In this document: positions 16,101 through 44,812 of the stretch, in pieces
Position numbering within the stretch: the stretch's first letter is position 1
Layout: each line of letters opens with the position of its first letter
Origin: Trichoplax sp. H2
Taxonomy: Eukaryota
Direction: 5' to 3'
NCBI GenBank assembly: GCA_003344405.1
Contig: NOWV01000115.1
Location: 186,001-244,829 of the forward strand
DNA length: 58,829 nucleotides
Program-made: the position numbers and the translations under genes
The notes under the pieces: generated by a model
The model's database searches: none
Told to the model about the DNA's origin: nothing
What the model saw: only the letters and a program-made list of their open reading frames with translations

Positions 16101-16482
16101 AATATGGAAAATAATTATTTCATCTGGAATATATGCCGCTCTAATCTTAGCTATTCCAGGTTATTCGCAAGTTGATTCTTTAGCTGAATTTAATGCAGCT
16201 ATTAGTAAACTACCAGTTTCGCTAATAACCATCATTATTGCAGTAAAAAGCATTCAAGAATCTACAGTCGACGAGGAAGCGGCCAGAAAAATCCTTCTGT
16301 ATTATTTGATTCGATATAGAAGAGGCTATAAATTCTTTTATGAAGAAGGTCAAAAACTTGGAATATTTCGCCTTCTCATGAATTATATAAGATCGCTTTC
16401 ATCTTTTGGAAAATTTATGCAGCATAATTTGCAAAATATCCGGTTACCAAATGGTAGTCGTAATAATAATGATTGTTCCTAA
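13143..16482 (+). CDS. Uncharacterised multi-pass membrane protein, paralog B (~810-816 aa; exons 13143/13161..13849 and 14739..16482)
   Basis: Collinear homology to paralog A. Donor AG|GTAAG at 13850, TACTAAC branch point at ~14715 and TTTTGTAG acceptor at 14738 give an in-frame join. Confidence 0.85.
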
Positions 16483-18573: not shown

Positions 18574-21500
18574 ATGGCGTCTTACCAAAGTGTACCATTA
18601 GATGTCCTTAAATCACAGTCATTAGTGGAATTTATTAAAGAAAAGACAAATGCTGCCAGTTTGCAAGTAAGTTACAGTCTGAAATTCTACTTTGAAAAAG
18701 ACTTTAAATGAAGTTGATCGATCAGTTAAATGAAAAACATTCAATAAAATTCACCAATAATAATTACATCATAGCTTTTAAAAAAATCAAAACTGTTACT
18801 TCTATAACATTGAATTAATCTTGTGTCCATTTGAAATTTATGTTTTCATTAATGCCGTACGTAAAATTTAAGAACGAAGATGATCCTTTCTACTTAGTGG
18901 ATATCAGCGATCTTATATGCAAGTACAAAACGGTGAGTAATCGTCATAAGCAGCTGCAAGCTCATCGTTCTTGTGTAAGAAACATTGCGGTTTATTTCTT
19001 TATATCTATCTATATAGTTCCATCTTGAAATGGTCTAGTTCAAGCTTTAATATAATTAGTAATAATGTCGGCAGTTCGAGTAGAGGAATAAAATGCTCTT
19101 AGCAAATAGTATTTCAATGGTACTTTCTAGTAGTTCCGAAAACTACAACACAGTGCCTTAAAGGACTATGTAGTTACTTATCATTGTAAAGAATTAAAGG
19201 TGTAATAGGCACCACAAAATAGCTTAAAAAAATGATGATAGATCAAACATTATTCCAATATTATTTTTAGAGTTGAACCATAAATGTACAGCATGTTATT
19301 GTCAGTCAAGTATTGAAAGTAGTCGCTCTAGAAACTATTCTATCAATGTTAGTATGCGTAATGTATTAAACACATTTTGTTGTATTAATTATTTATTAAA
19401 TCGTTCTTTTTAGATCTTTTCTTATATTCAAACATATTAGTAAACTATTCACTTAATGAGCAACGGTTTCTGTTATATTTTTACTTGATATGATGGTATC
19501 AATTTACTGGCTACCATTCTGTTCCTATTACGGTCTCTATTACTGGTTTTAGTGGATGTCTTTGCTACCTCGTATCAGGCCATTTTACGGTACATTTCCT
19601 TGATCTAGCGTTTTAAATTACAGCTGAGGGTTTGTAATTTAAGTAGCAATAATATCTACTGAAAGTTTGTCTTAGCGATTTTATATTTACTTTTGTAGCG
19701 ATGAAATGCAATCCGAATTTCCAAATGGTGGCAACTCTTTGCCGTTTAGGTGCTGGTTTGGACGTAGCAAGTGCAGTATGTTACGCTTGTATATATATAT
19801 ATATATAAGCTCTGATATATGTTAACGCCTTTAAAGTTAAGATTACATTTAAATCTTGTCAAATGTGATATTAAAAATAGGGAGAAATAGAGACTGCGGT
19901 AGCCTTGGGTCTCAAAGGCGAGGACGTCATCTATTCTAATACTTGCAAGGGGATTTCTCATTTGAAGTAAGTTTAAGATTAAAATGCTTCGCTTTACAGT
20001 AAGTAACCATAAATCGATTACCTATCAGGGTTATTGGCATTTACTTCTGATATATTATGCATTAGACAGTCTAAATGGAACTAACATTATATGTTCGCTT
20101 AAATTTAGGGTAGCTGCGAATGAAGGTATAACGCAGATGACATTTGACAGTGAAGAAGAACTGCATAGAATTAAGCGTATACTTCCCAATGCCCGGTAAA
20201 TGTTACTTATTTTCCTGGAAAATAAATTTATTGTTCCGTACATGACTTTAAGGACTAGTAATATTTACGCAGTTGAATTTATATAGACTGTTATTGCGGC
20301 TACTTGTGGATGACTCTGGCGCCCAGTGGAAGGTACAGCTTTGCGATAAAATGGCCATATATGCTTCTTTTGACTTTAGTCTAAATATCATTATTACGGC
20401 TCATATTAATACTAGCACGGAATAAATGCTGGAGCTCCTTTTAGCAGAGTATCTCACTTATTTAAAGTGGCCAAAAAGTTAGGCTTAAATTTAGTGGGAA
20501 CAAGGTAATGCTAAAATGGCAAGTGAAGAGACTTTATTATAGCCAATAAATTGGCTATAGCGCTGTATCAAATAGTAAATAGTAATAGATATACTATCAT
20601 AAATTGAAATGGAGAGAGAAGTCGAGATGTAAAATTGGTTATACAAATTTTAATATGAGATGAGATTTGATTTTACTCAACTTTCTATTCAACGTCTATG
20701 CTAACGCAATTCAAATTGTAACATTGCTGGTGGCTTTAATACAAGTTTTCATGTTGGTTCCGATTGCGGTGATCCTAGTGCATATTCTAAGGCAATAGAA
20801 AGGTGTAGAAAGGCTTTTGATATTGCGGTTAGTTTCAAATTTGTAGTAATATTAACTTTTATATAATTTAAATACTATAATTTTCGTTTTAATTCTCGAT
20901 GCTTAATCATAACAGAAAGGCTTAGGCATGGAACTCAGTATGTTAGATATCGGCGGTGGATATCCAGGACATGCAGATACATTATTTAAAAATGTAGGTG
21001 CTACTGTTAACACCTAATGATCTTGCACTTGCCTTATAAGTCTCGTTTCTTACTTCCAGATGTGTCAGTCTATAAATGAAGCAATAGATATCCATTTTCC
21101 ATCAGGCTGTGGAGTCAAAATAATTTCTGAGCCAGGTAACCTTTTAATCTTTCAGATTGGATGCACTACCGTTGATCCCATTGAATGTTGCTTAAGTCAG
21201 TTCTAGTATAAAAGATTCATAATTGAAATTATGAATTTAATTATGAAATTTAGGCAAGTACTTTGCGATGTCTTCTTCGATTCTATGTGCCAATATTATT
21301 GGTAAACGTCTAAGATACGAAGATGGCGATGTTCAAATCGAAGGTATTAAAGCCTTAGTAAACCAATTTATGATATTAGTCATCTAATACTTAATGGATT
21401 GAACAATATTGCTATAACTAACGACACATAGCTGATAACTCATTCTGAACTTAATTCTTTAATTTCAGGCAATCCAGATGATGCAAAAGACACTGTAAGG

Positions 21501-22202
21501 GTCTTATGTTGTGTTTACCGTTAGCTTAATTTTAAATCTTTCATATCTTTACGTTTCAGGAAGTTATGTATCACATTAGTGAAGGTATGGGAGGCTCTTT
21601 TCTTAGCGTAATTGCTACACATCAGCAGTATATCCCGAAAAAATTGTCGAATAACAACGAAAAATGCTACCGTAGCAGCCTTTGGGGGCCTTCATGTACT
21701 GCAACAGATTGCCTTTTAAGTGATTTTAATCTTCCAGAGGTAAAATTTAATTGAAGGAAATACTGATATAATTGATATTGCAAGTTTACATAACACGTTA
21801 CTACATTAAAAATACTTTACTCTGTTTCGCTGGGCAGATGGAAACTGGTGAATGGGTCTACTATGACGGTAAAAACAGCTAAACTAGTTCTTTATCCTTA
21901 ATAATATACGGTAAAAGCAATACCGGTGCTGAAATGAAATTGCTTTATTTAATAAAAGATTTAGGAGCATACACATCGAGTACCGCTACTAATTTTAATG
22001 GGTTCAAGAAGGCTAAGAGTAGCTATTTCATAAGTGAAGATTACTGGTACGACATATTTTTGCAAAAGCTGTAGAAAATTTGATTTCATCCTCTTTACAT
22101 GCAATCATATAGAGAAAATTCAAATTAATAAATTTTTAATTTATTTTCTATTGCGATAGGAATCAGTTCAAAAAAGAACTGTCGCCCATTTTCAATGTTT
22201 AA
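18574..22202 (+). CDS. Ornithine decarboxylase-like (fold-type III PLP) protein, copy 1, ~420 aa, 17 coding exons
   Basis: Spliced motifs PFYAMKCN (Lys codon 19704-19706), DVASAGE, MTFDSEEEL, SFHVGS, DIGGGYPG, SEPGKYF, WGPSCTATD, GAYT and FNGF. First exons are 18574..18666, 18873..18932, 19553..19589 and 19699..19775. Stop TAA at 22200-22202. Confidence 0.9.
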
Positions 22203-25200
22203 CGCATCGCATAACCATAACCTAAATTGTAGTAGAAACCGTAATCGCTATCTAGAGCACAGACTGTGCCTTGTTTGATATTTAGCAACATAATATCACT
22301 TTTTTAGGTTACATTAGCACCTACTTTAGTTCAATAATTTTAGTTTACGTGGTCTTGATAATCAAAAGGAGTCAGTGAAAGAAACTGAAATTCGAAAATC
22401 AACGTATAACATTAGTTTCCAATACTGAATCTACTACCAATCTTGAACATTGGAAGAATTTTCCAATCCCAAACCCATTTGATGCTACTCTCGTAATTAA
22501 ATTTTTACCCTGTCTGAACTAAAAATAAAAATTTCAAACAATCTATTTACTTTTATTTTTGTGTATTTATCACCGAAGTATGCAGCGTAATCATACAGCA
22601 TAGAGAATTGTCGCAGTCAGCCCCAATTATGTATAAATGTACTTTGATGACCACTTTTCAGTATTGCGGCGTAATGCATGAGTTATAAAAATTGGAATGA
22701 TCGATCAATGATTTGCTTACTAAGTAATATTTAAGGCTAAGATATCCAACTCTTATTATAAACTAGCATACACAGACCTTTTTAAATATTGTAATAAAAG
22801 CAGATTTTTATTTTAAGTTTGTAGGCCTAACTTTATTGTGGCGTAGTAAACTTATACAGAATAAGATATAGTTTGCCGTATTACAGTATTAAAATCATAA
22901 TCGCCATTTAGAATATAGATTGTGCCTCATTTGATATTTGGCCATACAATTTTTTTTCATAGGTTATACTAGTACCAGATAATGTTAGGGTTAGGGTTAA
23001 GCTTAGTAACTTTATTTGCCTGTTTTTGATAATTAAACGCAGTTCGTGAAAGGAATCTAAATTCGAAATCGACTTATAATATCAATTACTGACACTTTCA
23101 ACTACTGCAAATGTTGAATCTTTTAATAGATTTTGTAAATCTCAAGACAACTTTTATTCTTCAATCGTATATTAAATCCTTGCTCCGTTTCAAAGTTATC
23201 AGAAATAGTGATATTATCTTAGTAGACTATGAACTAACAATAAAAATTATGATATTGGAAATTTGTTTATGTTAGTGCTTTATATTTAGTACCATAGTGT
23301 GCACTGTAATAGCAGACCAGAGGGAATTGAAACATTAAGTCTCAATTATATATGCGTGCACGTTGACAACTTTGTTCCAGTAATGTGTTGTAGTAAATAA
23401 CTTAAAAATTTGGACTATTCAATATATGATTTGCTTATCACGTAATATTTGGCGAAAGTTATTACTTGCATGGACCGTGGTGTAACAGCATTACATTTTC
23501 ATTTATAAATAGGGCTAATGTGGTAAATCTTCAGTTGGTTTCAATTGGTGAGAAAGATCAAAATTCATTAACCCAATTTTAGTAGGGTATGCAGTATGTT
23601 GGAAATCTGAATTTCCAATATAGATTCCCATAGCTTTGAAATCAAAGTAATAGCTATGCAGGGTGTTTACTACAGTCTTTGTATTGACTAGCGGAATATT
23701 TATGGCATTGATAAATAGAAATTATAATACACTAAATGCGATTACGGTGCAAAAAAATGTATGGAAATGATTGCTTGTAAAAATAATCTATGTCCGTTTA
23801 TCCGGTTTATCTTAGTCGTTTTCGACAGATTATATGAGAGGTGAAAATTGAATTCACTCTCACGGACAGAAGGAATAATAAACGTAATTTTAAAACTACT
23901 CTCTCGGTTGTAACGGTTTATTGCATATCATATGGATTTGATCAACTTAAATAACTCAGATTAAGAGTTAGAGGTCGAGAACCGATAGTAATAGTAAGAG
24001 ATTATTACTAGGTCATTACAACCCTACTTAACCTATGCTATAATATTCCTTACGCTACTTAATACTTAATATGGCTCCTGCAAGTGAAAGACCCCTAACT
24101 AAGTATGATTGTCATAACTTACTCGAAGCCAATCATACCTAATTTACTGAGATTTGCTGATACCACTTACCGAAGCACCCTGTAGTCTCGCTTAATATTA
24201 CGACTAATATATCTAACATCATTTACTAACCATATGCGATGATTATAACACTTAATAGGGTGATTCTAACTCCGCTGGTCTACCATCTTATTTATTGCTA
24301 TTATGGCCTTACTATAACCGAGTTTCCTACATAGATTACCAGTATTTTTTAGCAATAAGGCAATACATTGCATTGCGAAATAATTATTAAAATCAAATAC
24401 AACATTAAACAATTTATCTGTAACAGAACTACTTTAAATTCGATCTTTAAGTAACTGCAATTGCTTCTAGTATACTAGTTTGCATGTAAACAGCGTAGAA
24501 TAATACTGTAAAAGCCATCTTACTTTCTTTCGAATTTTCTTGATTGCCTTAAAGCAGGTTATTACTGGAAGATTTCTATGAACTACTGTTTGGCAACACA
24601 ATATTATTACTCATGCCACATCATCACTCTTCTTTACAGTTAACATTGTATCCAAGTAAGATTTAATTCCTTCACTTCAGCCTGCAGTTTTCTGTGCTTC
24701 GTCACAAATTTCGCTCTCAGTAAATTCAACAACTTCCGATTATAATCCCAGTGATTCAGTATTTCTATCGGATGATACTAAGTATTCTAAAGGAAACCAT
24801 AATAAGACTCGTAATTTTATCGTCAAATTGCTCCGAATCAACGACAGCTGTTTTTTAAATTTATTATTTAAAGACAACAGGCGATTATACTATTTCATAG
24901 GGACAAATATTAATAGAGCGAGAAAAATATGTGATGACACCATTTAATCCTTTTTCTGCTGTGGACTAGACGAAAAGGATATAAAATGAAATTTGAACTT
25001 ATTAGAACGTCAAAGTATGTTGATCCAATATGAATTTTGATATCGATAAAAGAAAAATGCATTGAATTTGACGCTAAATTTATTAATAATTCATGCAAAT
25101 GCATATTTAATAAAGGTTGTGTCACGAAAAGTGCCCTACTGAAAGAGTAATTACTACTAAGCCAAGTAATTTTAAACTTTATGATAAGAGTAACGATGAT

Positions 25201-25451
25201 GATTCACGCTTAATTTAATTAAAGCTATAGAATTGTGTTTTATCAAACTTCTTTGCATTGGATTTATTCACCCAATTGGTATAGAATTTGTAAGTATTCG
25301 CTTTTCTTCTTTTCTCTCCAATACGTAATACTTTTCAATATTTTATTTAGTGATATTAAAAGAGTTATAACAATAATTACTGTAATTGAAAAATCCGTAC
25401 CTAATGCATGTTCGCGTAAATCGCATTGAAGGATCTAGTAAACTCAGCAAT

Positions 25452-28400
25452 ATGGCGTGCCCTCATCAGGTATCAATAGATGTTATTCGATCGAAATCTC
25501 TGCAAGAAATAATAACAGAAAAAACGAATGCAGCTAATATAGAGGTCAGCTTATCACAAAACTTTACATATAGATTTGAATTGGGTCAGTATTTGAGCAT
25601 TAAATTCTCAAATATATGCAGGTTTTTTGATTAATTTCAAGCCTACTTTGCACTTTTATGGTTTTAAGATAATGGCTCCATTTTGAAGTTTTTTCTTATT
25701 AATGAATTGCATTTTAATTAAAGAATGAGGACGATCCATTCTATTTAGTGGATATCAGCGATGTTATAAACAAGTATAAAACTGTAAGTAATGATACTCA
25801 AATGCGCTCTTAATATCTATATTTGAGATTTACATTGCAATATCCTACTTTATATCTTTTAAATGTTATAACTGCCTAATTTAACACTTGATAATAAGTA
25901 TCATTCTGTTTAAAGTACTTATTAATATATTGGTTCCAAACCGTATCATGCTATACCACATTAAGTGCAAAAGTATTTTACTAGCGAATATTTTTAGATT
26001 CTAATGAAATACAGAGCATAAAAAATATATTAGACTCTACCGATCATCAAAATCTCTTTGTAACTCCTGTATTTAAACTTGAAAGAGAATAAGCAATAAG
26101 CTCATATTGTTTAGCCAATTTGTATCAACTTAAGAAATTGCCCAAACTAAGATATTATCTATTAAATTGGCCTTATTTAGTCTTAGCATTAAGCGTTTCC
26201 TTTATATCATTTCTCGTAGCTAAATAGCGGTATCTGCACACTATTTCTTCAATGAATCACGCCAATTATTGTATTTTTCTCATTATGATGAAATAAATTT
26301 TCTGATCATACTTCATTTTCTTACTGTCTCCATTGAAAAAAAGTGGATTTCCATGATACCACGTGTTAAGCCATTTTACGGTACATTTCCACTATCAAAT
26401 ATATTGCAACTTTAAAATTTGCTGCAGCTATTTTTCAAAGTTTTCTTTATTACTCACATTTTCCTTACAGCAATGAAATCAAATCCAGATTTTCAGATAG
26501 CAGCTACATTATGTGGTTTAGGTACTGGTTTGGATGTTGCAAGTGCTGTAAGTTGTACTTATAATCTTCTATATTCAAAATATAGTTTCAGTTTAAATCA
26601 TTGAAAATATTGAAAATAGGGAGAAATTGAAACCGCTGTAGCAGTAGGTCTCAAAGATGAGGATGTTATATACTCTAATACTTGCAAAGGAATTTCTCAT
26701 TTAAAGTAAGTAAAAGATTAATTGCTTTCATTTTGGTAAAGAAATGTGCTAGCTAAATGTACGTTGTTATCGACGTGATGGTATTTGGTCAGAATTCTTT
26801 TCATTATTCTATTCTAGACTTGAAATTTGGAGTAGTACGACATTTAGTACAGTTTAATTTTTAAATTTGTAACAAAGATAAGTCTATTGATTTGTTTAAA
26901 TTGAAATTATTAGGGTAGCTGCTAAAGAGAATTTAACGCAGATGACATTTGACAGTGAAGTCGAACTGCATAGAATTAAACGTTTATATCCTAGTGCCAG
27001 GTATATATTTTAAATATGATTGGATAAGTAAATGTGATGTTAATGTTTTTAACTCTTATAAAAATAACTTTGAGGATATTTAATAAACATATGTAGACTA
27101 GTATTACGCTTACTTGTGGATGATTCCCATTCTGAGCTTAAGGTAGAGCTTTCAATATATTGTTATATCGACTCTCCTTTCGCCTTATTTAACTTGTTGT
27201 TACTACTTCATGTGTTCCCTAGCTTGGAGTAAAAGCTGGAGCTTCTTTCAGTAGAGTGCCGCATCTATTGAAAGTTGCTAAAGAATTAGGTTTAAATGTG
27301 ATAGGAACAAGGTAAGTGATTATTCTAATACATGAATCGGCGATAAAGTTCTATGTAGTAGATTAACACAAACATTTGCGTCGGTTTTCATAATTCGGAA
27401 GATGCAGTAAGCGCATAACTATCATTATCTATTTCGTAATCCAATATTAACCTAAAATTTAATTCGAGTTAATACTTATTTACGGCTTTAACACTTCATA
27501 ATAGTTTCCACGTTGGTTCTGAATGCGGTAGCCCTGATGCTTATGCCAAGGCAATAGAAAATAGCAGAAGGGTTTTTGATATCGCGGTTTGTTTAAAAAT
27601 TATCCTGTAATGTTGCTCAATTGTTATAATTTTGGTTGAGTATGGAGGCTTATTTACATTTATGCAATAGAAAGGGCTCGGTATGAAATTTAATCTGTTA
27701 GATATCGGTGGTGGATATCCGGGGCAAATAAACGAATTGTTCACAAATGTAAGTCATCGTTATCTCCCAAGGTATATAACAACCTTTTGCTAACTATGAC
27801 AGCCAAACTGCTATACTTTTAGATATCTCGTATTATAAATAAAGCATTAGACATCCATTTTCCTTCAGATAGTGGAGTCCGAATAATTTCTGAACCAGGT
27901 AATTCTCTGTGGCTATCTTATGAACGTTTAAAGTCAATTTAATTTCTATTAAATGTCCAGTTCGTTCACTGCAAGACAAAAATACTATGAATATATTAAT
28001 ATATATTTACATTAAAATTGAACACAAGGCCAATACTTCTCTTGTTCTTCATCAATTCTGGTGGCAAATATTATCAGTAAGCGCATAAGATTTGAGGATG
28101 ACGACATCCAAATTGAAGGTACGAGAGCTAAAATTTAGTACTGCATATTAGCAATAAGATGAGAGTCAAATTGTTGCCCCTTTTGCATCAATTTATATAA
28201 TTTATTAGTTAATACATGAAAACTGATAGTATTTCAAATTTAAATTTTTTATTGCTAGGCTATCCAAGTGATAAGGAAAATATGGTGATGATTGTGTTTA
28301 AATTTTGTAACCTTTTCAATTGATTCTACTTTAATCATTGAATGCTGTTATTTTTATAGGAAATAACGTATCATATTAATGAAGGTGTAATAGGCGCATT

Positions 28401-29002
28401 CATTAGTAAATTGATTATAAATTTGCTGTATATTCCGAAAAAATTGATAAAAAGCAACGAAAAATGCTATCGCAGTAGTATGTGGGGCCCAACATGCACT
28501 CCAGTAGATCAAATTTTAAGCGATTATAATATACCTGAGGTATATCTTCATTTTTGAAGAAATGCAATATTAGAAACTTTAAATTTCCTAAGCCCGCAAT
28601 TAATATATACTTTTTTTCCATTTCGATGGACAGATGGAAGTTGGCGAATGGGTCTATTATGAAAGTGAGTGCATTTATTATTTCTTAAAATGTATAAGAT
28701 AATTCTATCGTAAACAGAAAATCGTATAACGAAGCTATTTTATTGCAAGATCTGGGGGCATATTCATCCGGTTTAGCCACAGATTTTAATGGATTCAAAT
28801 GCAAAAAAAAATATTATTTTATAAACGAAAAAGATTGGTATGATACATTTATTGCAATACCCTCTTGTATGTGAAACTGTTATTTTTGAAATTCACTCCT
28901 CAGCAGAAATGCAGTTGCTTAACCGATAATAATAACTCAATTTGCTCTAATTTCGATAGGGATCAATACAAGAAAGAATTATCTCCTTATTTCAAAAATT
29001 AA
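25452..29002 (+). CDS. Ornithine decarboxylase-like protein, copy 2, ~422 aa, 17 coding exons
   Basis: PFYAMKSN, DVASAGE, SFHVGS, DIGGGYPG, SEPGQYF, WGPTCTPVD, GAYS and FNGF. All 16 introns are at the same positions and phases as in copy 1, and I found no frameshift or premature stop. Confidence 0.9.
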
Positions 29003-29328
29003 CAAATTGCAGTATATGATCATCAGCTGAGCAGTACTAGTACAAAACCCATAGATTTAAGAGCACACGTATACATTATTGAATACCCTGTAAGATTTAT
29101 AATTTTAAGCCTTAAATATTTCTGCAGTCGAGCTTTAGTCGACCAATTTTAGAAATTAAGATTAAAAATTAACAAATTGCAGTATAAGATCATCAGCCGA
29201 GCAGTACTAATACAAAACCCATAGATTTAAAAGCACATGGATACATTATTGAATACTCTGTAAGATTTATAATTTTAAGCCTTAAATATTTCTACAGTCG
29301 AGCTTTAGTCGACCAATTTTAGAAAATT
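28994..29328. repeat. 170-bp tandem duplication of the copy-2 stop codon and 3' UTR
   Basis: AAAAATTAACAAATTGCAGTAT...GTCGAGCTTTAGTCGACCAATTTTAGAAA is repeated at offset 170 with few substitutions. Confidence 0.9.
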
Positions 29329-30164
29329 GATAATTTCGTGTATAAGTAATCTCTTTTCTTCATACATACAGTTTTTAAATGTGTAACACGATCAGAAAAT
29401 GTTTGTTGAATTCATGTTTAATATTTAAATTAACTGCTGATACTAAAACTATTACGTTATTCATCAAGGATAAAGTGAAGTTATGCTGAAGATCAGAGTT
29501 CATTTCTATTATGATCCTACTACTTTTTCGTTATTTCAAAGTATGATTAGTAATCATAACAGGACTTCAATGCACTTTAATTTGCTCCTAATAAAATTTG
29601 CATTATTCGCGTGAGTTTTAGAAAATTGCTCTGAATCACTGAAAGGTATTAGCCATTAAAATCCTAAGATAATGTTACATGTGCACATACATCATAAGGT
29701 TTGCCATTGCTAGATAAAGTAGAAATTACTAAATTAATGGCGAATAAATATGCAGCATTAATACTCTAATGCTATTACTAAGCTCTACATAGCTATAGGA
29801 TTGGCTAAATATTTCATTTGAAAGCAATTGGCATTAGTACTACTACATTGCATTCATCTATTTACTACCCAAAATTTGTTATTCTAAGGTTTGTTTAATT
29901 TATATTGGCCAACTGACTAAATTACACTAAATAAAATTACGCAGCGTGTGATTGCTAGGTCTGCCGGGATAAATAGAGTTTCTGGATACTGTGCTTAACC
30001 ACTAGTATTTATTTTGATGCTTCCTACTACAGTCTTGACCTATCAATATCTAAATTTATTTTTATATTCTGTTATCATAGATTTTTTGAAACAAAGTACA
30101 GTACTAAACCAAATAATATAGATTGAACACTCAATGGTGCTGTAGCAATAACTTTAAACAGTTT

Positions 30165-31575
30165 AACGTACTAGCTTAACGTCTGATCACTTTGCTGACA
30201 GAGATACCGTAGCCTATTCCATTCTTTTAATCCATAAAAACCAGAATAGGTTAACGCTCGAATTCGCTTTAACTTTACTCGTTTAACGTCCTGTTACTTC
30301 GCTGATAGAGATGCTACAGTTTTATCCATTATTTCAATCCATAAAGAGAGAGTATGCTTATATCGCACAGTAATTAACTAGCTTAACGTATTGCCACTTG
30401 GCTGACAGAGATACTAAAGTCTTTTCCATGCATAAAAAGAGAGTAGGCTTAAAACTTAATACTACTCAGTAATCAGTTAGCTTAACGTTTTGCCACTTCC
30501 CTGGCAGAGATAGATACTATAGTCTTTTCCGTTATTTCAATCCATAAAGAGAGAGTATGCTTATGTTGCACAGTAATCAACTAGCTTAACGTCTTACCAC
30601 TTCGCTGATAGAGATACTACAATTTTTTCCACTATTTCAATCCATGAAACGAGAGTAGACTTAAACTTAGTACTGCTCAGTCATAAACTAGCTTTAACGT
30701 ACTAACTTAACGTCTTATTACTTCGCTGATAGAGATCCTACAGTCTTTTCCATCATTTCAATCCATAAAGAGAGTGCTGACTTATATTTAATAGTTAATA
30801 TTTAATATTGCTCTGTAATCAACTAGCTTAACGTTTTGCCACTTCGCTGACAGAGATACTAAAGTCTTTTCCATGCATAAAAAGAGAGTAGGCTTAAAAC
30901 TTATTACTACTCAGTAATCAGTTAGCTTAACGTTTTGCCACTTCCCTGGCAGAGATAGATACTATAGTCTTTTCCGTTATTTCAATCCATAAAGAGAGAG
31001 TATGCTTATGTTGCACTGTAATCAACTAGCTTAACGTCTTGCCACATCGCTGACAGAGATATTAAAGTCCTTTCAATCACTAAAAAGAGAGTAAGCTTAA
31101 GCTTAACACTGTTCAGTAATCAGCTAGCTTAATGGCTTGCCACTTCACTAGCAGAAATAGATACTACAGACTTTTCCATTATTTTAATCCATCAAAAGAG
31201 TATAGGCTTACACTTAATATTGCAAAGTACTCTACTAGCTTAACGTCTGCACTCGTCGCTGTCAGAAATACTACCGTTTTTTCCATCATTTCTGTGCATA
31301 AAACGGAAGTAACTTACGCTTAATATTGCACAGTAATCAACTAGCTTAACGTCTTGCCATTTCGCTGTCAGAAATACTACCGTCTTTTCCATTATTTCCA
31401 AGCATAAAACGAGAGTAGGCTTAAGCATAAGACTGCTTAGTAATCAACTAATTGAACGTCTTGCCATTTCGCTGGCAGAAATACTACCGTTTTTTCTATC
31501 CTTTGCATGCATAAAACGAGAGAAGGCTTAAGTTGAACACTGCTTAGTAATCAACTGGCTTAACGTCTTGCTACA
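30165..31575. repeat. Minisatellite, ~14 units of ~100-110 bp with higher-order structure
   Basis: Recurrent AACTAGCTTAACGTCTTGCCACTTCGCTGACAGAGATACTAC..TCTTTTCCATTATTTCAATCCATAAA.AGAGAGTAGGCTTA. The block at ~30380-30600 is nearly identical to ~30825-31045 (offset ~445). Confidence 0.92.
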
Positions 31576-31629
31576 AATCAATAAAGAGAGAGTAAGTTGA
31601 GGCAATTGGTTTTACAATAATTCTCAACT

Positions 31630-32038
31630 ACTTGTTCTATTTCCTGTCTCCCTTGCTCATCCAGAGTTTAATTGCAGGAAATTTTCACCAAGGTCGTTAG
31701 TTCAATTCGCTCTTCTAGACATGAATATTCAACACCTCGTAAACTAGTGTATCATGTACTCCATTGAGCCAAATAATCTGTATGGCATTCGAGCAAAGTA
31801 CAACGCAGTAAAGAACAAAGTTCAAGGTGCTCGTTGAGCATCAATTGCACTAGACTCTACGATATAGGCAAGCAATTGGCCATTTTTTTCCAGTCAAGCA
31901 TTGGGAGTTTGCCTTATCCTGCTCATCATAGCCACTACAAGTACGATACTTGATGCAGCCATTTGTCATGCAAATTATCTTATTCTTCATTTCCAATGCA
32001 ATTTGTGTTAGCTGATGTAATTGTTGATGAACGTATAC
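31630..32038 (-). pseudogene. Possible decayed coding fragment, death-domain-like
   Basis: One minus-strand frame reads GKLPMLDWKKMANCLPIS*SLVQLMLNEH...LLECHTDYLAQWST* with several stops. It resembles the death-domain DW..LA..L...W pattern by eye only. Confidence 0.25.
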
Positions 32039-32326
32039 TTATTAAGTATGATTAATTAATTCTTCATACTATGGTGTTGTTGTTAGCTTAAGGAATAGAC
32101 TTTCCGATCGATCCTTCTGAATACATTTCAAGTTGGACTGGTAGCAGTCTTCATTTTCCTTCCGTTTTGATTTGTATTTTTTGGTGCAGAAATTGTAAGT
32201 ATCTACTTGTTTCTTTCCTTGTACAAAGATATGATCTTGCTTGTAAGCAATCTTGAAAGGGATTTTACTAAGTGTACTATAACAACATCGATCTTGTAGC
32301 GTAGAAAAACCTACAGACTCAGCAAG

Positions 32327-35300
32327 ATGGCGTCTCATCGTGCTGCACCAATAGACATTATACAATCACAATCATTGCAAGAATTAATTCTGGAAAGAAC
32401 AAACGCAGCGAAATTAAAAGTAAGTCAACTTCTCCAGCATGCACATTTCAATTTATCCTGATTTGCCACTAGAAATTCTATTCAAAGGATCATTTGCAAG
32501 TCGGTTTATAGAATGTTCAACATTTCCACTTGGGTGATTTTACTTGAAAATGTTTCTGTTTTAATTTATATTATGGCGTTAATCAACACGTTGCAAAGAA
32601 TGATGATGAACCATTTTATTTAGTGGATATTGGCGACGTTATATACAAGTACGTAACTGTAAGTAAGCGGAATGGGATGTTTTTTTTACTGTCCTTACTT
32701 AAGATTGACGTTATACCACGGTACTATGTCTTTCTTCACATCTTTAAAATGTTTAACTGGCTAAATCGAAGCAGCTGCAATGTAAAAAGATGACCATAAC
32801 TGAAATTGCATTTCACTTACATTTCTTGTTCAACTCCGAAAAGTACTCTACCTTAGAACACTAAAGAGGTTTAGTTACTTTTTACCAGACAAAATACAAA
32901 TGGCCAAAATAATTTTAGAACAAACTCACAGTTACAGCTATTCTAGCCTCTGTACACCACGATTAGATTTGAGCAATCTTAAATAGCAAGTTCATGTTGT
33001 TACACTGTCTAGGCTTTTTATTTTAACTTATTGGTGCTCTATCTTTCATATCTATTATCGTACTTAGATTGAATGTTAAGTTGCTAACTTTACCTATAAC
33101 TACAATGTTGTTATTGATCACTAGTATAATTCTTTTTCTTATTTTCTGATCATGACGCTATTCTTTTCCACATCTCACGACTGAAATTAGTGGACGTCCA
33201 TGATGCCTGGTATCAGGCCTTATTTTGGTATGTTTCTTCTACTAGACTTATGACAGCTGTAGTACTTACCTTTCAGGTACGACTAGCAACTGAAGGTTTA
33301 TTCGATAATTAATTTTTCCCTTCAAGCTTTGAAATGCCACCCGGATTTCCAGATTATAGCCACTTTATGTAGTTTAGGTGCTGGTTTGGACGTAGCAAGT
33401 GCTGTAAGTTCTGATGTACAATAGTGATGAACAGGCAGAACTTGAGTTATAAAAATATCATTTTGATATTAGGGAGAAATAGAAATAGCTAGAGCATTAG
33501 GTCTCCAAGATGAAGATGTAGTCTACTCCAATACTTGCAAGGGAATTTCTCATATAAGGTATGCTTGCCTAAAATTAGAGCCGTGATTACGTATCGTCTA
33601 TTGCTAATCGCTGTGAATAGAATAAACTTTTATTTCTGAAAGTATCAATGCATAAGAACACTTCATGATCTGATATAAATAACATCCATCTTTATACGGG
33701 ATGATTCAATGGAATTCAAAATTGCTGACGAATTTATTACCTCGTGTTAATTTTAATCTATTAGGGCAGCAGCTAAAGAAGGTCTGACGCAGATGTCCTT
33801 TGATAGCGAGGTAGAACTACAAAGAATTAAGCTTACATTTCCAAATGCGAAGTAAGTAATTGAATGTGAATCCTACGAGTGGATTAGATGCCACTCTTTT
33901 CCGATGAATTAATAAATGATTTGGCTTTTACATTATGCAGACTGCTAATACGTTTGCTTGCGGATGACTCACATTCCATCCTTAAGGTATAGTAGAGCAA
34001 TAAGAGAGTTTAATGAGCTCTATTTTTACCCTATTTTTATGCATTTAATACGGTGCTATTAAAATAATAGACAGGTGCAAAAGCTGGAACTCCGTTCAGT
34101 AGAGTATCGCACCTGTTTAAGGTTGCTAAAGAATTAGGTTTAAATGTAGTCGGTACAAGGTAATCGAATGATTCACATAGCAATCACCTTAACATGTTCA
34201 ACTTATAATCAGTAAATTCGACTTTGATATATTGCTAGCAGTAAACACGGTATGCATGTATTTTCTCCTCTTTATTAGAATTTATGCTAGAAAGAGATGG
34301 TACTGCCATTAATAAGGACTTAATAGGCTTTCTTTTTGTTCTCTATTCAATATTATTTCAAATACATCACCCATTGTTAATACTGTGGACAATTTGAACT
34401 ATTCCAATAAGTTTTCACATCGGTTCCGGTTGTCATGACCCTAGTGCTTTTACGAAGGCCATAGAAAAGTCTAAAAAGGCCTTTGATATCGCGGTTAGTC
34501 CACTAGTTGTAGTGAAGTAGAACCCTTTAGCCTAACTTAACTACTTAAAATTTAATTTGATTGTTACAACAGAAAGAGCAAGGCTTGGAACTCAAGGTGC
34601 TAGATATTGGAGGTGGATTTCCTGGACATGCAAACACATTATTCGAAAATGTCAGTCCTGATGAATTATTTCAGTAAATTCAATGCTGCTTTTAAACGTA
34701 GAGCTTTTGATTTTCAGATGTGCCATGCTGTCAATCAAGCTATAGACATTCATTTTCCAGCAGATAGTGGAGTGAAAATAATTGCTGAGCCAGGTAATAG
34801 TCTAGATGTTGATACTGATCTCATGAAATCTGCCACATGAAATGATATCTTACAAAGCGTCAGAGATTCTAAGATGAAATATCATTAAATGACCTAGTTT
34901 GCTCATAATTTGAACATAGGCAGGTTCTTTGCCCATACTTCTTCAACTTTGGTTGCCAATATTATCGGTAAACGACTTAGATATAGTGATGACGACGTTC
35001 AGATTGAAGGTACGGTATTAAGTGCAATGAAACAGCTTCTAAAATTCGATAAAATAACAAGAATAAGATGGGCACGCGTTACTAAATAGCCAAATAACTA
35101 CACAGAGATACAAAACTGATATATACTCCAATTTTTAATATTCATTTTAGGGCACCCTAATGATACGGAAAATATGGTGATATTTTTTTTAGTTTTAATT
35201 ACCACCATGCATTAAGTTAATTTTAACACTTCTTATTCATATGATATCTTTTCAGGAAATGCTATATCACATCAATGATGGCTTAATCGGCTCTTTTCTT

Positions 35301-35874
35301 GGAACAATATTAGCACGTCAAAAATATCTTCCACAGCAATTGATACCTACTAAAGGAAAATCTTACCGCAGTAGTTTATGGGGACCATCATGTGGAGCAA
35401 TGGATTGCCTTTTAAGTGACTGTAATCTCCCAGAGGTATGATATATATTAATTTGTGGTTATAATGATAGCCTTTAAAGTTTACGGGCATCTTACTTGAA
35501 GTCACATATTTAATCGAGCAGATGGAAGCCGGCGAATGGGTCTACTATGAAGGTACCGTATAAATAACTTTCATCTTAAAATACCATTGCGATAATAATT
35601 AAAGAGTAAGAGAATTATTTTATTAATAGATATGGGAGCGTATACATCGTGCTTAACCACTAATTTCAATGGATTCAAGAACACAACTAGATACTATTAC
35701 ATAAATGAAAAATATTGGTACGACTTGCCATTTTCATCAATGTTGTAGCTTATCTTATTTACAAATTAACTTATCAGTTTATGATTAATGAATATCTAAC
35801 AGATATTTTTTTATTCCAATTGCGATAGGAATCAATACAGGAAAGAATTATCTCCGTATTTTAGTATTGAATAA
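32327..35874 (+). CDS. Ornithine decarboxylase-like protein, copy 3, ~420 aa, 17 coding exons
   Basis: PYFALKCH, DVASAGE, SFHIGS, DIGGGFPG, AEPGRFF, INDGLIGSF, WGPSCGAMD, GAYT and FNGF. Same exon structure as copies 1 and 2; stop TAA at 35872-35874. Confidence 0.9.
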
Positions 35875-41244: not shown

Positions 41245-44200
41245 ATGGCTTCCCATCATGTTGTACCATTAGAAGTCACCGAGTCGCAGTCTTTACAAGA
41301 AATCATTACTCAAAAAGCGAATGCAGTAAACTTAAATGTAAGTTTGATTTTTTATTGGATATTATTGGCCAAATGTCCGAATCTATCATTACTTCCTTGA
41401 TTGCTGCATTATTTTACTTTGCTCGCTGATTCAAGCCATAAGCTACTATTGCTTAAATATGGAAATTTATATATAATTTTTTTGTTTTACCGAATGTCAA
41501 AGAATGAAGATGAAGCATTTTATTTGGTGAATATTGGTGATATTATATACAAGTTTAACACTGTAAGCAAACTGTAGCTAATATAAAAGACTTAATAAAT
41601 AATATCGTTACCTAGAAAATATCAGACCTATATCAAATTTACCACTTTCTCGATTTATAGATGCAATGAATAGGTTTTATAACTCCTTAGGCTCGCTATC
41701 CATTAACTTGAAATTTGAGATTAAAATTGAGCCAACCTCTAGTCTCACACAACTTGTGTTACTGTTATTACTAAAATTAACTAAAATTACTACTGTAGAT
41801 TACCATGCAATCAATCATCGCTGAATTAACGATAGAATATGTAGCAATTAAAATAAACCAACGTAAATTGACGAAGAAGTGTTCTCGTTTAATCGTAAAA
41901 CTATCTTAAAATTATCGACAGTAGTAAGTTTGATAAGTTTACCCAACTTTCCTATGTAAAAGAAATATTTACTATCTCTATCTCCTTAAGACACCAGTCT
42001 TATAACCCCTTATTTCTAGTCTCTGTTAATCTGCCTGAATGCTATTTGAATATCATTTTGGTAGCGATAGAATTTTAAAATAATATGATATTCTGACGTT
42101 TCTTTTTGCTTATAATAAAATTAGTGGTTGTCCGCACTACCTCGTGTAAAGCCCTTTTACGGTAATTTCATGCTAGCGTTTGTTACAGTAGATGTAGAGT
42201 CGAGTTTAAATAAAAAGAAGCTTTCTAATATTTTATGTAATTTCGTCCTTAAGCTATACAATGCAATCCAGACTTTCATCTAGTAGCAGCTTTACGTAGT
42301 CTAGGTGCCAGTTTCAGCGTCACAAGTGCTGTAAGTGATAGAAGTCTAAGAGAAGTGTTTAAATCCTTTAGCCACATTAAATCAAATTTAATGTTATTGA
42401 GATAGGCTGATATACGGTTAACGACTGCGTTGGATGTCAAAAATGACAATATCATCTATTCAAATCCGTGCAAAGGATTGTCTCATTTAAAGTAAGTGAG
42501 ACAGAGTATTCTCGATCATTTTAATGATGAAATACCAAGCTAATTCCTTCATAAACTGTTAAGATTGTAACGATGTTTTATCTAATATTTAGTTCAAACT
42601 ATAGAGTTCAGGTATTAAAAGTTAAAGATTTTTCTATGCAAAATCTGATGACGAATATTCACCATGACTTATTGAGAAGCCAGTTTTGTTGCAGCGTTTT
42701 TGATTTTGGATACTTTATATTTAGGGTGGCTCTGATAAAAGGAATAACTCTGATGACTTTCGATAGCGAAGGAGAACTACAGCGAATAAAGCGTATGGTT
42801 CCACATGCAAAGTAAATAGTAGGGTTTAATTTTGAAATGATACTCATATTGGATAGATCGACAATTTTTTGAAATTATTGACTGGAATAGATTGCTGTTA
42901 CGACTGAAAGTTGATGATTCTAAAGCGGCTTTTCCGGTATGTACGGTCAAAAAATTTGAAATAAACTTTCATTTTTCTCTGCTTAGATTTCATGATACAA
43001 ACTAATCTACGTCCACTTTAGTTAGGGGCGAAGTATGGAGTACCCTTCTCTAGAGTGTTGCACTTATTTAAAGTTGCTAGAAAATTAAGTTTAAATGTAA
43101 TAGGAATAAGGTAAGAAAACTAGTAATTAACCATAATTTATTACTTGAAGTTGGACCGACGATGATTAGTTTGTTCTTATTTAAAATAATAAAAAAATAT
43201 ACTTGACAAATATGGTAAATAAATTTAAAATACAGGAATAAGTCCTTGTGTTAAAAGATAATTATGCTGATTTAGTTTCCATGTTGGTTCTGGCTGTGAT
43301 GACCCCGATTCTTTTACTAAAGCTATTGAAAAGTCCAAAAAAGCGTTCAATCTAGCAGTTAGCTTCCGAGTTGCTTTTTAAGATTATATGTAGTAAGACT
43401 GAATTAAAATAACGACTTTTTAATGCGAGTCGCAATATTTAATTACTTTAACAGAAAGAGATTGGCTTGGATCTCACATTACTAGATATCGGTGGCGGAT
43501 ATCCGGGGATTGAAGATACATTATTTGAAAATGTAAAAAGAGATTTACTTATTCCACGATTAATTATACTTATTTGTATGTCGGATTTGATGGCCAAAGC
43601 ACTTTATTTTCAGATTTGTGGAGCCATTACTGAAGCACTTGACAAATATTTTCCTACAGAATGTGGAGTTGAGATAATAGCAGAGCCAGGTAGAACCTTT
43701 TTGACTAAGGATAAATGTTACATAAAATTTGGCCGTCCTTATCACGGCAATGGATTAAAAGTCTAGATGAATCTTAGTCTATGATCGATGCTAAAGGTTT
43801 AACGTTATTACTTGTATTTTGGTGGCTAGGAAAATATTTTACTACCTCTTCAATGATTTTAGTCACGAATGTCATTGGTAAACGTCTGAGATACGATGAT
43901 AATGTGAAAACTGAACGTATGTAATCTATTAATAGAAAGACCATTTTTTCTGATACTATGCTTTCGACAGAGTCATTATGATCATTTAATATTGATGTAA
44001 AACTTGAACTCTAATATTACCAGAAAAAATTAAAAAATTGCTTTTCATCGTAATTGATAATTTCAGAGAATCAATCCCATAAGGAAAGCATGGTTAGGGC
44101 ATATTATTTGCATTACATTTTCGAAAATACTGGTTTCATTCTTTTTGTTTGCATGATTACTTTTATAGGAATGCATGTATCATATTAATGATGGCTTGCA

Positions 44201-44812
44201 TGGATCTTTCCTTAGAAGATTATTCACAAAAGAGCCATTCATACCTAATGTACTGAAATCGAAAAGTGGTCAATTCCATCGTAGCAGCATATGGGGGCCT
44301 ACATGTAATGGACTGGATTGTATTGCAAGTGGCCAAACTATTCCAGAGGTATACCATAGTATAGATTTTACATTTTAATGCAGAATGCTAAGGTTTACTT
44401 ACAATAAATATGAATGAACGCGGTAATACTTTATTTGATTAGATGGAAGCTGGTGATTGGACTTACTTTGAAAGTGAGTATATAGGTGATCTCGAAAGTA
44501 CTTGAATTTATACATTTGATGAAACTGTTCTTGTTTATAAGATCTAGGAGCATATGCATCAGCTGCGTCCTCCAATTTTAACGGATTTGCAAGTAAAGAA
44601 AGGCATTATTACATAAGCAAAGAACATTGGTGAGCCAAATTTGTTCTTGGACTATTTGCGCTAGTAACTGTATGATTCAATTCGCTCCTACTTTTAAAGC
44701 TAGATTAATTTTACCAATCAATAATTTATTCCAATTTAATAGGAGTATGACTAATAAAGAAGTCAAGCAAGAGTTATCTCGATATTTTGATATTCATTTT
44801 AATACACAATAG
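41245..44812 (+). CDS. ODC-like protein copy 4, lacking the PLP Schiff-base lysine (putative pseudoenzyme, antizyme-inhibitor-like)
   Basis: PFYAIQCN (CAA at 42259-42261 replaces Lys) and SVTSAAD in place of DVASAGE. It keeps NPCK, KYG, SFHVGS, DIGGGYPG, AEPGKYF, NDG, WGPTCNGLD, GAY and FNGF. All 17 exons are open. Confidence 0.88.

What the first reader, a model, noticed from the sequence alone, without database searches (positions are those of the whole stretch)
41245..44812. Copy 4 is an intact ODC pseudoenzyme (K69Q, D88S, E94D): independent antizyme inhibitor or heterodimer partner
Seen: the Schiff-base Lys codon is CAA (42259-42261), and the two acidic positions near it are also changed (SVTSAAD vs DVASAGE). 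All 17 exons and splice sites are intact, and several motifs are more ODC-like than in copies 1-3 (NPCK, KYG, NDG, GPTCNGLDC). Known: K69 is needed for efficient catalysis; antizyme inhibitors are inactive ODC paralogs; ODC active sites are shared, taking K69 from one subunit and C360/D361 from the other. Inference: either a convergently evolved antizyme decoy, or a subunit that donates its C360 half-site to copies 1-3 and so retunes or dampens them.
Basis: partly seen in the sequence, partly recalled or inferred. Interest (0 to 1): 0.78.

Follow-up and report, generated by a model that had tools for sequence, protein, structure and literature searches.

The report
Lysine-less ODC-like paralog in Trichoplax
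The fourth gene of a tandem family of ornithine-decarboxylase-like genes in the placozoan Trichoplax has lost the lysine that holds the vitamin-B6 cofactor but is otherwise very well conserved, so it is probably a non-catalytic partner protein of a kind already known from other animals.

Summary
Window 41245-44812 (+) carries a 17-exon, 430-codon ODC-family gene, the fourth of four tandem paralogs in a Trichoplax genome. All 16 introns are GT..AG. The codon aligned to Schiff-base Lys69 is CAA at 42259-42261 in the window and in contigs of two further runs under two organism labels.

RNA contigs confirm 12 of 16 splice junctions, exons 5-17. Exons 1-4, including the Gln69 exon, have no RNA cover, and both public gene models skip exons 3+4 in frame.

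Of 76 columns invariant in 14 canonical ODCs plus copies 1-3, copy 4 differs at only five: K69Q, G86S, D88S, A90T, E94D. All five lie around Lys69 (P about 7e-6). The other 67 are kept, and its branch is not accelerated. It therefore looks like a maintained Lys69-less subunit rather than a decaying copy.

All four tandem copies lack D332 and D361. The canonical ODC, P0008, lies on another scaffold.

The antizyme-decoy and heterodimer roles remain untested, and both were proposed in 2010 for recurrent inactive ODC paralogs. Verdict: new member of a known kind.

The parts
41245..44812 (+). Copy 4 gene, start codon to stop codon: 17 exons, 430 codons
   Evidence: It corresponds to public models P0001 and P0002, which are incomplete.
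41245..41337 (+). Exon 1 (aa 1-31)
   Evidence: ATG, GT donor and homology to exon 1 of copies 1-3. No RNA cover.
41503..41562 (+). Exon 2
   Evidence: AG/GT and homology. No spliced RNA cover.
42125..42161 (+). Exon 3 (about human 55-67); absent from public models
   Evidence: AG/GT. 10 of 12 residues identical to P0008 and to mammalian ODC. Recovered by 5 of 6 guides. No spliced RNA cover.
42254..42330 (+). Exon 4 (about human 67-92), holding Gln69, Ser86, Ser88 and Thr90; absent from public models
   Evidence: AG/GT. Recovered by 6 of 6 guides. It is the only match to this part of the protein in 40000-45500. No spliced RNA cover.
42259..42261 (+). CAA = Gln at the Schiff-base Lys69 position
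   Evidence: Same letters in X16 and X2 contigs.
42310..42324 (+). AGT..AGC..ACA = Ser86, Ser88, Thr90 (canonical Gly, Asp, Ala), alternate residues of strand beta-2 and its C-terminal end
   Evidence: Strand assignment from the AF2 model of copy 3.
42406..42491 (+). Exon 5, holding Asp94 (GAT 42409-42411)
   Evidence: The RNA contig covers its last 61 nt and the junction to exon 6. Codon.
42725..42811 (+). Exon 6
   Evidence: RNA joints 42491>42725 and 42811>42891.
42891..42936 (+). Exon 7
   Evidence: RNA joints.
43022..43110 (+). Exon 8 (K169, G171)
   Evidence: RNA joints.
43276..43357 (+). Exon 9 (H197, S200)
   Evidence: RNA joints.
43455..43532 (+). Exon 10 (G235-G237)
   Evidence: RNA joint 43532>43614 shows that the 81-nt intron read through by P0001 and P0002 is spliced out.
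43614..43689 (+). Exon 11 (E274)
   Evidence: RNA joints.
43830..43916 (+). Exon 12 (Lys at position 277)
   Evidence: RNA joints.
44067..44092 (+). Exon 13
   Evidence: RNA joints.
44169..44348 (+). Exon 14, holding His323, Phe331, Thr332 (ACA 44226-44228), Cys360 and Asn361 (TGT AAT 44304-44309), Asp364
   Evidence: RNA joints.
44443..44473 (+). Exon 15
   Evidence: RNA joints.
44542..44629 (+). Exon 16 (G387, Y389, F397, N398)
   Evidence: RNA joints.
44743..44812 (+). Exon 17 and stop codon
   Evidence: RNA joint 44629>44743. The tail is present in P0002.
18574..35868 (+). Copies 1-3 of the tandem family (about 18574-22071, 25452-28853, 32327-35868), the candidate partners
   Evidence: Copy 1 = P0004, copy 2 = P0006, copy 3 = P0003.

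Best explanation
Copy 4 is an expressed, selectively maintained member of a Trichoplax-specific tandem family of ODC-derived PLP-decarboxylase-like genes. It has lost the Schiff-base lysine (K69Q) and four neighbouring residues on the catalytic face of barrel strands 1 and 2 (G86S, D88S, A90T, E94D).

Shown: the substitutions, the intact 17-exon frame, splicing of exons 5-17, the clustering of the changes, and the absence of rate acceleration.

Inferred:
- Its own barrel cannot form the internal aldimine, so it is catalytically dead or slower by orders of magnitude.
- It still folds, still holds a PLP-shaped pocket and still dimerises. R154, H197, S200, G235-237, E274, Y389, K169, D364, G387 and F397 are all kept.
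- Its most likely role is as a partner subunit in head-to-tail dimers with its tandem paralogs (copies 1-3). In such a dimer its Cys360/Asn361 loop would complete the partner's Lys69 site, leaving one working composite site and one dead site. That would change the activity or specificity of the partner.
For: 1. Identity: Pfam PF02784 (E 6e-50) and PF00278 (E 7e-18) on P0001. The best solved relatives of copy 3 are eukaryotic ODCs.
2. Substitutions: K69Q, D88S, E94D.
3. Clustering: of 76 columns invariant in 14 canonical ODCs plus copies 1-3, copy 4 departs at 5, all within residues 69-94, where 9 such columns lie. Hypergeometric P = 6.8e-6. 67 of 67 are kept elsewhere.
4. Geometry: in the AF2 model of copy 3 (pLDDT 83), the Lys69 equivalent follows strand 1, residues 86-89 form strand 2, residue 90 follows it, and residue 94 is in the first turn of the next helix. 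The changed positions are i, i+2, i+4, while the intervening F87 and V89 are kept.
5. Rate: copy 4 departs from 25 of 119 canonical-invariant columns, against 31, 31 and 33 for copies 1-3. Its branch from the family ancestor is 0.46, against 0.56-0.73 for copies 1-3. In 9 Tajima relative-rate tests it is never significantly faster and is significantly slower in 2.
6. Expression: contigs of an RNA-Seq run join exons 5 to 17 at exactly the predicted GT..AG sites, 12 of 12 junctions covered.
7. The same Gln, Ser, Ser, Thr, Asp letters occur in a DNA run of a second organism label (X2).
8. Precedent: K69 and C360 mutants of ODC complement in heterodimers, and planarian ODC6 is a natural K69S paralog with an RNAi phenotype (passages of PMC5574924).
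Against: No RNA contig covers exons 1-4, so inclusion of the Gln69 exon is inferred only. Both public gene models skip exons 3+4, which removes 114 nt in frame.

Four of the five special changes lie in exon 4. Exon 4 also carries 3 of the 23 differences between the window and X2 (3 of 77 nt against 20 of 3491; Fisher P = 0.013). That is what an unused, decaying exon would also show.

Between the window and X2 the coding differences are 6 nonsynonymous to 4 synonymous (pN/pS 0.41). Neutrality is not rejected (P = 0.15), and exon divergence (10/1293) is no lower than intron divergence (13/2275).

No ortholog outside the two near-identical Trichoplax lineages was found, so the age of K69Q is unknown.

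Heterodimer formation, PLP binding and co-expression with copies 1-3 were not tested. Retention of the cis PLP-pocket residues in a dead site is not explained by half-site donation alone.
Confidence: 0.4

Rival explanations
1. Antizyme decoy, working like an antizyme inhibitor. Copy 4 would bind the placozoan antizyme more tightly than the real ODC (P0008) and so protect ODC from inhibition and degradation.
For: It is an ODC homolog that lacks Lys69. Xenopus AZIN1 is likewise said to lack K69 and C360 (passages of PMC6738921). Residues equivalent to the conserved antizyme-binding-element positions K115, A123, E138 and L139 are kept, with K141 changed to Arg (positions from PMC6313458 passages, shifted by one from AZIN2 numbering). 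Independent emergence of such decoys has been proposed for many lineages (PMC5574924 passages).
Against: The same antizyme-binding-element residues are kept in copies 1-3 and in P0008, so they do not single out copy 4.

AZIN1 is a monomer that cannot bind PLP and has S277, S331, E332 and D389 (PMC6313458). Copy 4 keeps Y389 and an aromatic 331, has Lys at 277, and keeps the whole PLP pocket and C360. A pure decoy would not need these.

Copy 4 belongs to a clade that had already lost ornithine-binding D332 and D361 and is only 46.5% identical to the real ODC.

Whether Trichoplax has an antizyme could not be checked. No genome is held, and no paper in the library links antizyme to placozoans in substance.
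Confidence: 0.12
2. No Gln69 protein is made. Either exons 3+4 are skipped, as in the public models, giving a 392-aa protein without barrel strands 1-2, or the gene was disabled recently and is drifting towards a pseudogene while still transcribed.
For: P0001 and P0002 both join exon 2 to exon 5, and skipping both exons keeps the frame. There is no RNA cover of exons 1-4. No protein of 89 aa or more in the 5.8-billion-protein database carries the exon 4 peptide (weak evidence). Exon 4 carries 4 of the 5 unique changes and an excess of between-strain differences. pN/pS of 0.41 is not distinguishable from 1.
Against: The public models are demonstrably not RNA-based here. They read through an intron that RNA contigs splice out, and P0002 omits exon 12, which RNA contigs include.

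Exon 3 is 10 of 12 identical to canonical ODCs. Exon 4 keeps an open frame, both splice sites, A67, C70, N71, L80, G84, F87, V89 and S91, in both strains.

The changes follow an i, i+2, i+4 pattern on one face of a strand rather than being scattered.

67 of 67 invariant columns elsewhere are kept, including PLP-pocket residues. These would have no purpose in a barrel lacking two strands. Copy 4 is the slowest-evolving member of its clade.
Confidence: 0.2
3. Copy 4 is still a working protein in its own right. It would either be a decarboxylase that uses non-covalently held PLP, or a ligand-binding or sensor protein whose remodelled polar pocket (Gln69, Ser86, Ser88, Thr90, Asp94) binds something new.
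For: All remaining PLP-contact residues and C360 are kept. All five changes are to polar residues, three of them hydroxyl-bearing, on one surface. This looks like remodelling rather than loss. The copy 4 substrate pocket (H323, F331, T332, N361) shares three of four substitutions with the weakly active Entamoeba ODC (H, F, E, N; PMC3543441 passages).
Against: Loss of Lys69 is described as loss of an essential residue (PMC5574924 and PMC6738921 passages). From my recollection, not a call, K69 mutants of ODC lose several orders of magnitude in rate. No natural Lys-less enzyme of this fold came up in any search made here. No ligand can be proposed from sequence alone.
Confidence: 0.15

Closest known systems
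Recurrently evolved catalytically inactive ODC homologs (Ivanov, Firth & Atkins 2010, J Mol Evol 70:289). The paper is not held; it is known here only through passages of PMC5574924, PMC5518511 and PMC3543441.
   Same: A lineage-specific duplicate of ODC with substitutions in the key-residue set (here K69Q, D88S, E94D, R277K, D332T, D361N of 20), next to a paralog with the full set (P0008). The same two candidate roles, antizyme-inhibitor-like or heterodimer partner/inhibitor, were proposed there.
   Different: I could not see whether that survey included Trichoplax. The public model of this gene lacks the Lys69 exon, so the substitution is not visible in the databases. Here the losses are confined to the Lys69 shell, with every other family-invariant residue kept.
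Planarian ODC-like paralogs ODC5 (C360V) and ODC6 (K69S) (PMC5574924)
   Same: A natural loss of Lys69 in one member of a multi-copy invertebrate ODC family. A heterodimer with one working composite site was suggested there too. The RNAi phenotype was not explained by putrescine or by an AZI-like role.
   Different: The origin is independent: copy 4 groups with the Trichoplax copies at 100/100 support. No paralog with a complementary C360 loss exists here, as all four copies keep C360.
Vertebrate antizyme inhibitors AZIN1 and AZIN2
   Same: ODC paralogs without decarboxylase activity. The antizyme-binding-element core residues are conserved.
   Different: Copy 4 is not orthologous. AZIN1 is monomeric, binds no PLP and has lost dimer residues 277, 331, 332 and 389 (PMC6313458). 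Copy 4 keeps the PLP pocket, C360, Y389 and an aromatic 331.
Trypanosomatid dead-paralog partners (AdoMetDC prozyme; DHSp, PMC3663545)
   Same: A catalytically dead paralog of a polyamine-pathway enzyme that is kept because it forms a hetero-oligomer with the active paralog.
   Different: A different enzyme family. There the dead subunit activates its partner by orders of magnitude. Here neither complex formation nor any effect has been shown.
Entamoeba histolytica ODC (PDB 4aib; PMC3543441)
   Same: The substrate pocket has His323, Phe331 and Asn361 equivalents, as in copy 4.
   Different: EhODC keeps the Schiff-base lysine and is a weak but real ODC. Copy 4 has Thr, not Glu, at 332 and lacks the lysine.

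Membership tests
Group IV (alanine-racemase-fold) PLP decarboxylases, eukaryotic ODC-like branch | N-terminal PLP-binding barrel domain plus C-terminal sheet domain (Pfam PF02784 + PF00278) | tested here: met
   P0001: PF02784 E 6.2e-50, PF00278 E 6.6e-18. P0002: 1.2e-46 and 4.6e-15.
Ornithine decarboxylase (EC 4.1.1.17), catalytically competent | Schiff-base lysine (Lys69) | tested here: not met
   Gln, CAA 42259-42261. No alternative Lys-bearing exon in 40000-45500.
Ornithine decarboxylase (EC 4.1.1.17), catalytically competent | PLP-stabilising residues D88, E94, R154, H197, S200, G235-237, E274, R277, Y389 (list from PMC5518511 passages) | tested here: not met
   8 of 11 kept. D88S, E94D and R277K are changed.
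Ornithine decarboxylase (EC 4.1.1.17), catalytically competent | Substrate-binding Asp332 and Asp361 | tested here: not met
   Thr332 and Asn361. Also lost in copies 1-3 (T/I/A and T/T/G).
Ornithine decarboxylase (EC 4.1.1.17), catalytically competent | Cys360 and Phe397 contributed in trans; dimer and structural residues K169, G171, D364, G387 | tested here: met
   All kept.
Ornithine decarboxylase (EC 4.1.1.17), catalytically competent | Decarboxylation of ornithine | not testable with these tools
   Needs an enzyme assay.
Antizyme inhibitor (functional class) | Binds antizyme more tightly than ODC does | not testable with these tools
   Only the antizyme-binding-element core residues could be read: K115, A123, E138 and L139 are kept, K141 is Arg. 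The same holds in all four copies.
Antizyme inhibitor (functional class) | An antizyme exists in the organism | not tested
   No genome is held for the window, and I had no antizyme sequence to search with. Literature searches gave nothing of substance.
Antizyme inhibitor (vertebrate AZIN1/2 gene family) | Orthology to AZIN1/AZIN2 | tested here: not met
   Copy 4 groups with Trichoplax copies 1-3 (100/100). The AZIN2-like sequence groups with vertebrate ODCs (100/100).
Antizyme inhibitor (AZIN1-type) | Monomeric, no PLP binding, dimer residues 277/331/332/389 replaced (S, S, E, D) | tested here: inconclusive
   Copy 4 has K277, F331, T332 and Y389, and an otherwise complete PLP pocket. The sequence points away from the AZIN1 state, but the oligomeric state was not measured.
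Dead-paralog partner subunit (prozyme type) | Forms a hetero-oligomer with an active paralog and changes its activity | not testable with these tools
   Full-length copy 4 is a spliced product that the folding tools do not accept. No complex job was sent, because a pass would mainly reflect likeness to solved ODC dimers.

The most novel reading that the evidence does not exclude
The four tandem genes are a placozoan invention: an ODC-derived family of PLP decarboxylases that gave up both ornithine-binding aspartates and now make an amine other than putrescine. Copy 4 would be their dedicated dead subunit, kept under strong selection. As a heterodimer partner supplying a different residue-361 loop (Asn instead of Thr/Gly), it would set the activity or the substrate choice of copies 1-3. 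That would be a prozyme-like control of amine synthesis in an animal without neurons.
Probability: 0.15. Interest if true: 0.7.

Novelty: new member of a known kind. Interest (0 to 1): 0.42.

Why it matters
Inactive ODC paralogs are a textbook case of pseudoenzymes that regulate polyamine synthesis, and outside vertebrates their roles are mostly unknown. This one is unusually clean. The only family-invariant residues it has lost form the shell around the Schiff-base lysine, and everything else is kept at least as well as in its presumably active sisters. That makes it a good test case for what a Lys-less subunit of a shared-active-site dimer is for.

It also corrects two public gene models that hide the substitution. 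And it draws attention to a Trichoplax-specific ODC-like family without the ornithine-binding aspartates, whose products could matter for signalling chemistry in placozoans.

Tried and rejected
- RNA support for exons 1-4. The one read-laying run gave spliced RNA contigs only from exon 5 onward. X16 (labelled 'RNA?') and X18 gave unspliced, DNA-like contigs. A part without cover proves nothing either way.
- Database search for any protein carrying the exon 4 peptide. The 50-aa open frame around exon 4 found 71 word-sharing candidates, none with E <= 10. This is weak evidence.
- Orthologs in other placozoans. None appeared among the best 120 of 5388 hits to P0001. None appeared among the best 150 of a profile search of 1.84 billion representatives. 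The four high scorers I inspected out of those 150 (P0121-P0124) are multi-unit fusions. They are 35-39% identical to the Trichoplax copies, closer to canonical ODCs, and all carry Lys69.
- dN/dS between strains. There are too few differences: Nd 6, Sd 4.
- Amino-acid differences between the window and the named T. adhaerens proteins. The counts are 1, 3, 1 and 2 for copies 1-4, so there is no contrast.
- Alternative Lys-bearing exon in the long intron 2. None found.
- Own-genome search for an antizyme: no genome is held.
- Ivanov et al. 2010: not held.
- Supplements of papers were not opened.
- Structure or complex prediction of copy 4 itself was not attempted. The spliced product is not an accepted input and the public models are wrong.
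- RNA editing as a rescue of Lys was rejected on principle. No known editing type turns CAA into a Lys codon (my knowledge, not a call).
Full report
**What the window is.** Translating the largest exon of the reported gene and searching the protein database gave two exact matches. These are P0001 (uncharacterized protein TRIADDRAFT_60904, Trichoplax adhaerens, 397 aa) and P0002 (ornithine decarboxylase, Trichoplax sp. H2, 390 aa). Both carry the two ODC-family Pfam domains.

tblastn of P0001 against the window shows four tandem copies on the + strand, at about 18.6-22.0, 25.5-28.8, 32.3-35.7 and 41.2-44.8 kb. Copies 1, 2 and 3 correspond to P0004, P0006 and P0003. A fifth Trichoplax ODC, P0008 (TRIADDRAFT_27475), lies on another scaffold. 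The window agrees with P0002 at the two residues where P0001 and P0002 differ.

**The observation.** Reading the sequence and assembling exons by GT..AG and frame gives 17 exons, a 1293-nt CDS and 430 codons, with canonical ends at all 16 introns.

A spliced protein-to-genome aligner that I wrote reproduces the model. It recovers exon 4 (42254-42330) with 6 of 6 guide proteins. It recovers exon 3 (42125-42161) with 5 of 6, including the canonical Trichoplax ODC and a mammalian ODC.

In an alignment numbered on mammalian ODC P0062:
- codon 69 is CAA (42259-42261, Gln);
- codon 88 is AGC (Ser);
- codon 94 is GAT (Asp).

The exception is NDG, which is shared with copy 3.

**Reads.** One search for runs and one laying of four runs were allowed.

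A run on record as RNA-Seq (X19) holds spliced contigs. They join exon 5 to exon 14 (record 10, 730 nt) and exons 14 to 17 (record 11). That gives 12 joints, all GT..AG, at exactly the introns 5-16 of my model. The gene is thus transcribed and processed. The 81-nt intron that both public models read through is removed in the RNA.

No RNA contig covers exons 1-4. X16 and X18 gave only unspliced contigs.

Contigs of X16 and of the DNA run X2 (a second organism label) cover the Lys69 codon and its neighbours and show no other letter there. The nearest differences are at 42283, 42295 and 42297.

**The public models.** P0001 and P0002 both pass from the end of exon 2 directly to exon 5. Exons 3+4 total 114 nt, so the frame survives. 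Skipping either exon alone gives a stop within 14 codons. The K69Q change is therefore not visible in public protein records. It also means the possibility of real exon skipping has to be taken seriously.

**Pattern of change.** I took 14 canonical ODCs (cnidarian, vertebrate, unnamed, and P0008) plus the four window copies.
- 119 columns are invariant in the 14 canonical ODCs. Copy 4 departs at 25 of them, against 31, 31 and 33 for copies 1-3.
- 76 columns are also unchanged in copies 1-3. Copy 4 differs at five of these: K69Q, G86S, D88S, A90T and E94D.
- All five fall in residues 69-94, where only nine such columns lie (P = 6.8e-6). The other 67 of 67 are kept.

In an AlphaFold model of copy 3 (alignment of 43 sequences, pLDDT 83):
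- the Lys69 equivalent sits just after barrel strand 1;
- residues 86-89 form strand 2;
- residue 90 follows that strand;
- residue 94 opens the next helix.

The changes thus lie on the catalytic face of two neighbouring strands. They occupy alternate positions, and the intervening F87 and V89 are kept. Passages of PMC5518511 list D88 and E94 among the residues that stabilise bound PLP.

**Rate.** In a maximum-likelihood tree of 20 sequences:
- the four copies form a clade (100/100) on a long stem;
- copy 4 is sister to copies 1-3 (100/99);
- the copy 4 branch is 0.46, against 0.56-0.73 for the others.

In nine relative-rate tests (three outgroups by three copies), copy 4 has fewer unique changes in seven, slightly more in two, is never significantly faster, and is significantly slower in two. 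This does not fit long neutral decay.

**Between-strain differences.** X2 differs from the window at 10 exonic and 13 intronic places. By Nei-Gojobori counting this is 6 nonsynonymous and 4 synonymous, pN/pS 0.41. That is compatible with neutrality (P = 0.15) and with omega 0.2 (P = 0.21).

Exon 4 holds 3 of the 23 differences (Fisher P = 0.013). Two of those three lie in one codon. One of the two resulting amino-acid states (Cys) is the state of copies 1-3.

Amino-acid differences between the window and the named T. adhaerens proteins number 1, 3, 1 and 2 for copies 1-4. There is no power here.

All four tandem copies lack both substrate-binding aspartates and two pocket tyrosines:

| Position | Copy 1 | Copy 2 | Copy 3 | Copy 4 |
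|---|---|---|---|---|
| D332 | T | I | A | T |
| D361 | T | T | G | N |
| Y323 | G | I | I | H |
| Y331 | A | I | L | F |

P0008 keeps 20 of 20 key residues. Copies 1-3 keep Lys69, H197, E274, C360 and the glycine loop. They look like active PLP enzymes, but probably not ornithine decarboxylases. Copy 4 is therefore the Lys-less member of a diverged family, not a dead copy of the housekeeping ODC.

No member of this clade was found outside Trichoplax.

**Mechanism.** ODC active sites are shared between subunits. K69 and C360 mutants complement each other, and the same idea has been raised for planarian ODC5 and ODC6 (PMC5574924 passages).

Copy 4 keeps every residue it would contribute in trans (C360, D364, G387, F397) and the dimer contacts, together with its own PLP pocket minus the lysine shell. 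I therefore favour a dimer-partner role with copies 1-3, giving one composite working site and one dead site. Confidence is moderate to low, because nothing about binding was tested.

The antizyme-decoy role is less likely. AZIN1 has lost PLP binding and dimerisation (PMC6313458 passages), whereas copy 4 has conserved the corresponding residues. The antizyme-binding-element residues do not distinguish copy 4 from its sisters.

The skipped-exon or young-pseudogene reading remains a real rival until cDNA across exons 2-5 is seen.

**Novelty.** Searches for Trichoplax or placozoa with ornithine decarboxylase or antizyme found no paper that treats these genes (passages read).

The general phenomenon and both proposed roles are in print: Ivanov et al. 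2010, which is not held and which I saw only as cited passages. I cannot say whether that survey listed Trichoplax. Supplements were not opened.

I rate this as a new member of a known kind, with a tidy and somewhat unusual conservation pattern.

Noticed in passing
window 18574-35868 (copies 1-3) and 41245-44812: All four tandem ODC-like genes lack Asp332 and Asp361, the ornithine-binding acids, and Tyr323 and Tyr331. Copies 1-3 keep Lys69, His197, Glu274 and Cys360. They are probably PLP decarboxylases with a substrate other than ornithine. The clade sits on a long stem and has no member outside Trichoplax among the hits seen.
   Followed up: partly
public models P0001, P0002, P0006 versus window 41245-44812 and 25452-28853: The public gene models are wrong in places. 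P0001 and P0002 skip exons 3+4 and read through the intron 43533-43613, which RNA contigs splice out. P0002 also omits exon 12. P0006 (copy 2) replaces exon 3 and the last exons with unrelated sequence.
   Followed up: yes
window 20416-20504 (copy 1, codon for residue 169): Copy 1 in this window has Asn at the dimer-interface position Lys169. The named T. adhaerens protein P0004 has Lys there.
   Followed up: no
window 26471-26547 (copy 2, exon 4): Copy 2 has Ser instead of the otherwise invariant Cys70, next to Lys69.
   Followed up: no
window 1440-2339 (-): An intronless 300-aa open frame matches the PhzF-like family PF02567 (E 1e-48). It is the only Pfam hit among 40 open frames scanned outside the ODC copies.
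   Followed up: no
window 6166-9328 and 13125-16479 (+): Two pairs of long intronless open frames (about 240 aa followed by about 630 aa) have no Pfam match. They are spaced about 7 kb apart, close to the 6.9-kb spacing of ODC copies 1-3.
   Followed up: no
window 41674-41719 (intron 2 of copy 4): A 46-nt stretch is matched by contigs of X19 and X2 that continue into unrelated sequence on both sides (tables 7 and 8). It is probably a short dispersed repeat.
   Followed up: no
P0121 (unnamed, 1170 aa): This is a two-unit ODC-like fusion model with a long acidic Ser/Asp/Glu repeat insert. It has Lys69 in both units but Ser or Thr at 361 and Glu at 332 in the C-terminal unit. It is another ODC-like protein with a changed substrate pocket and is not related to the Trichoplax clade.
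   Followed up: partly
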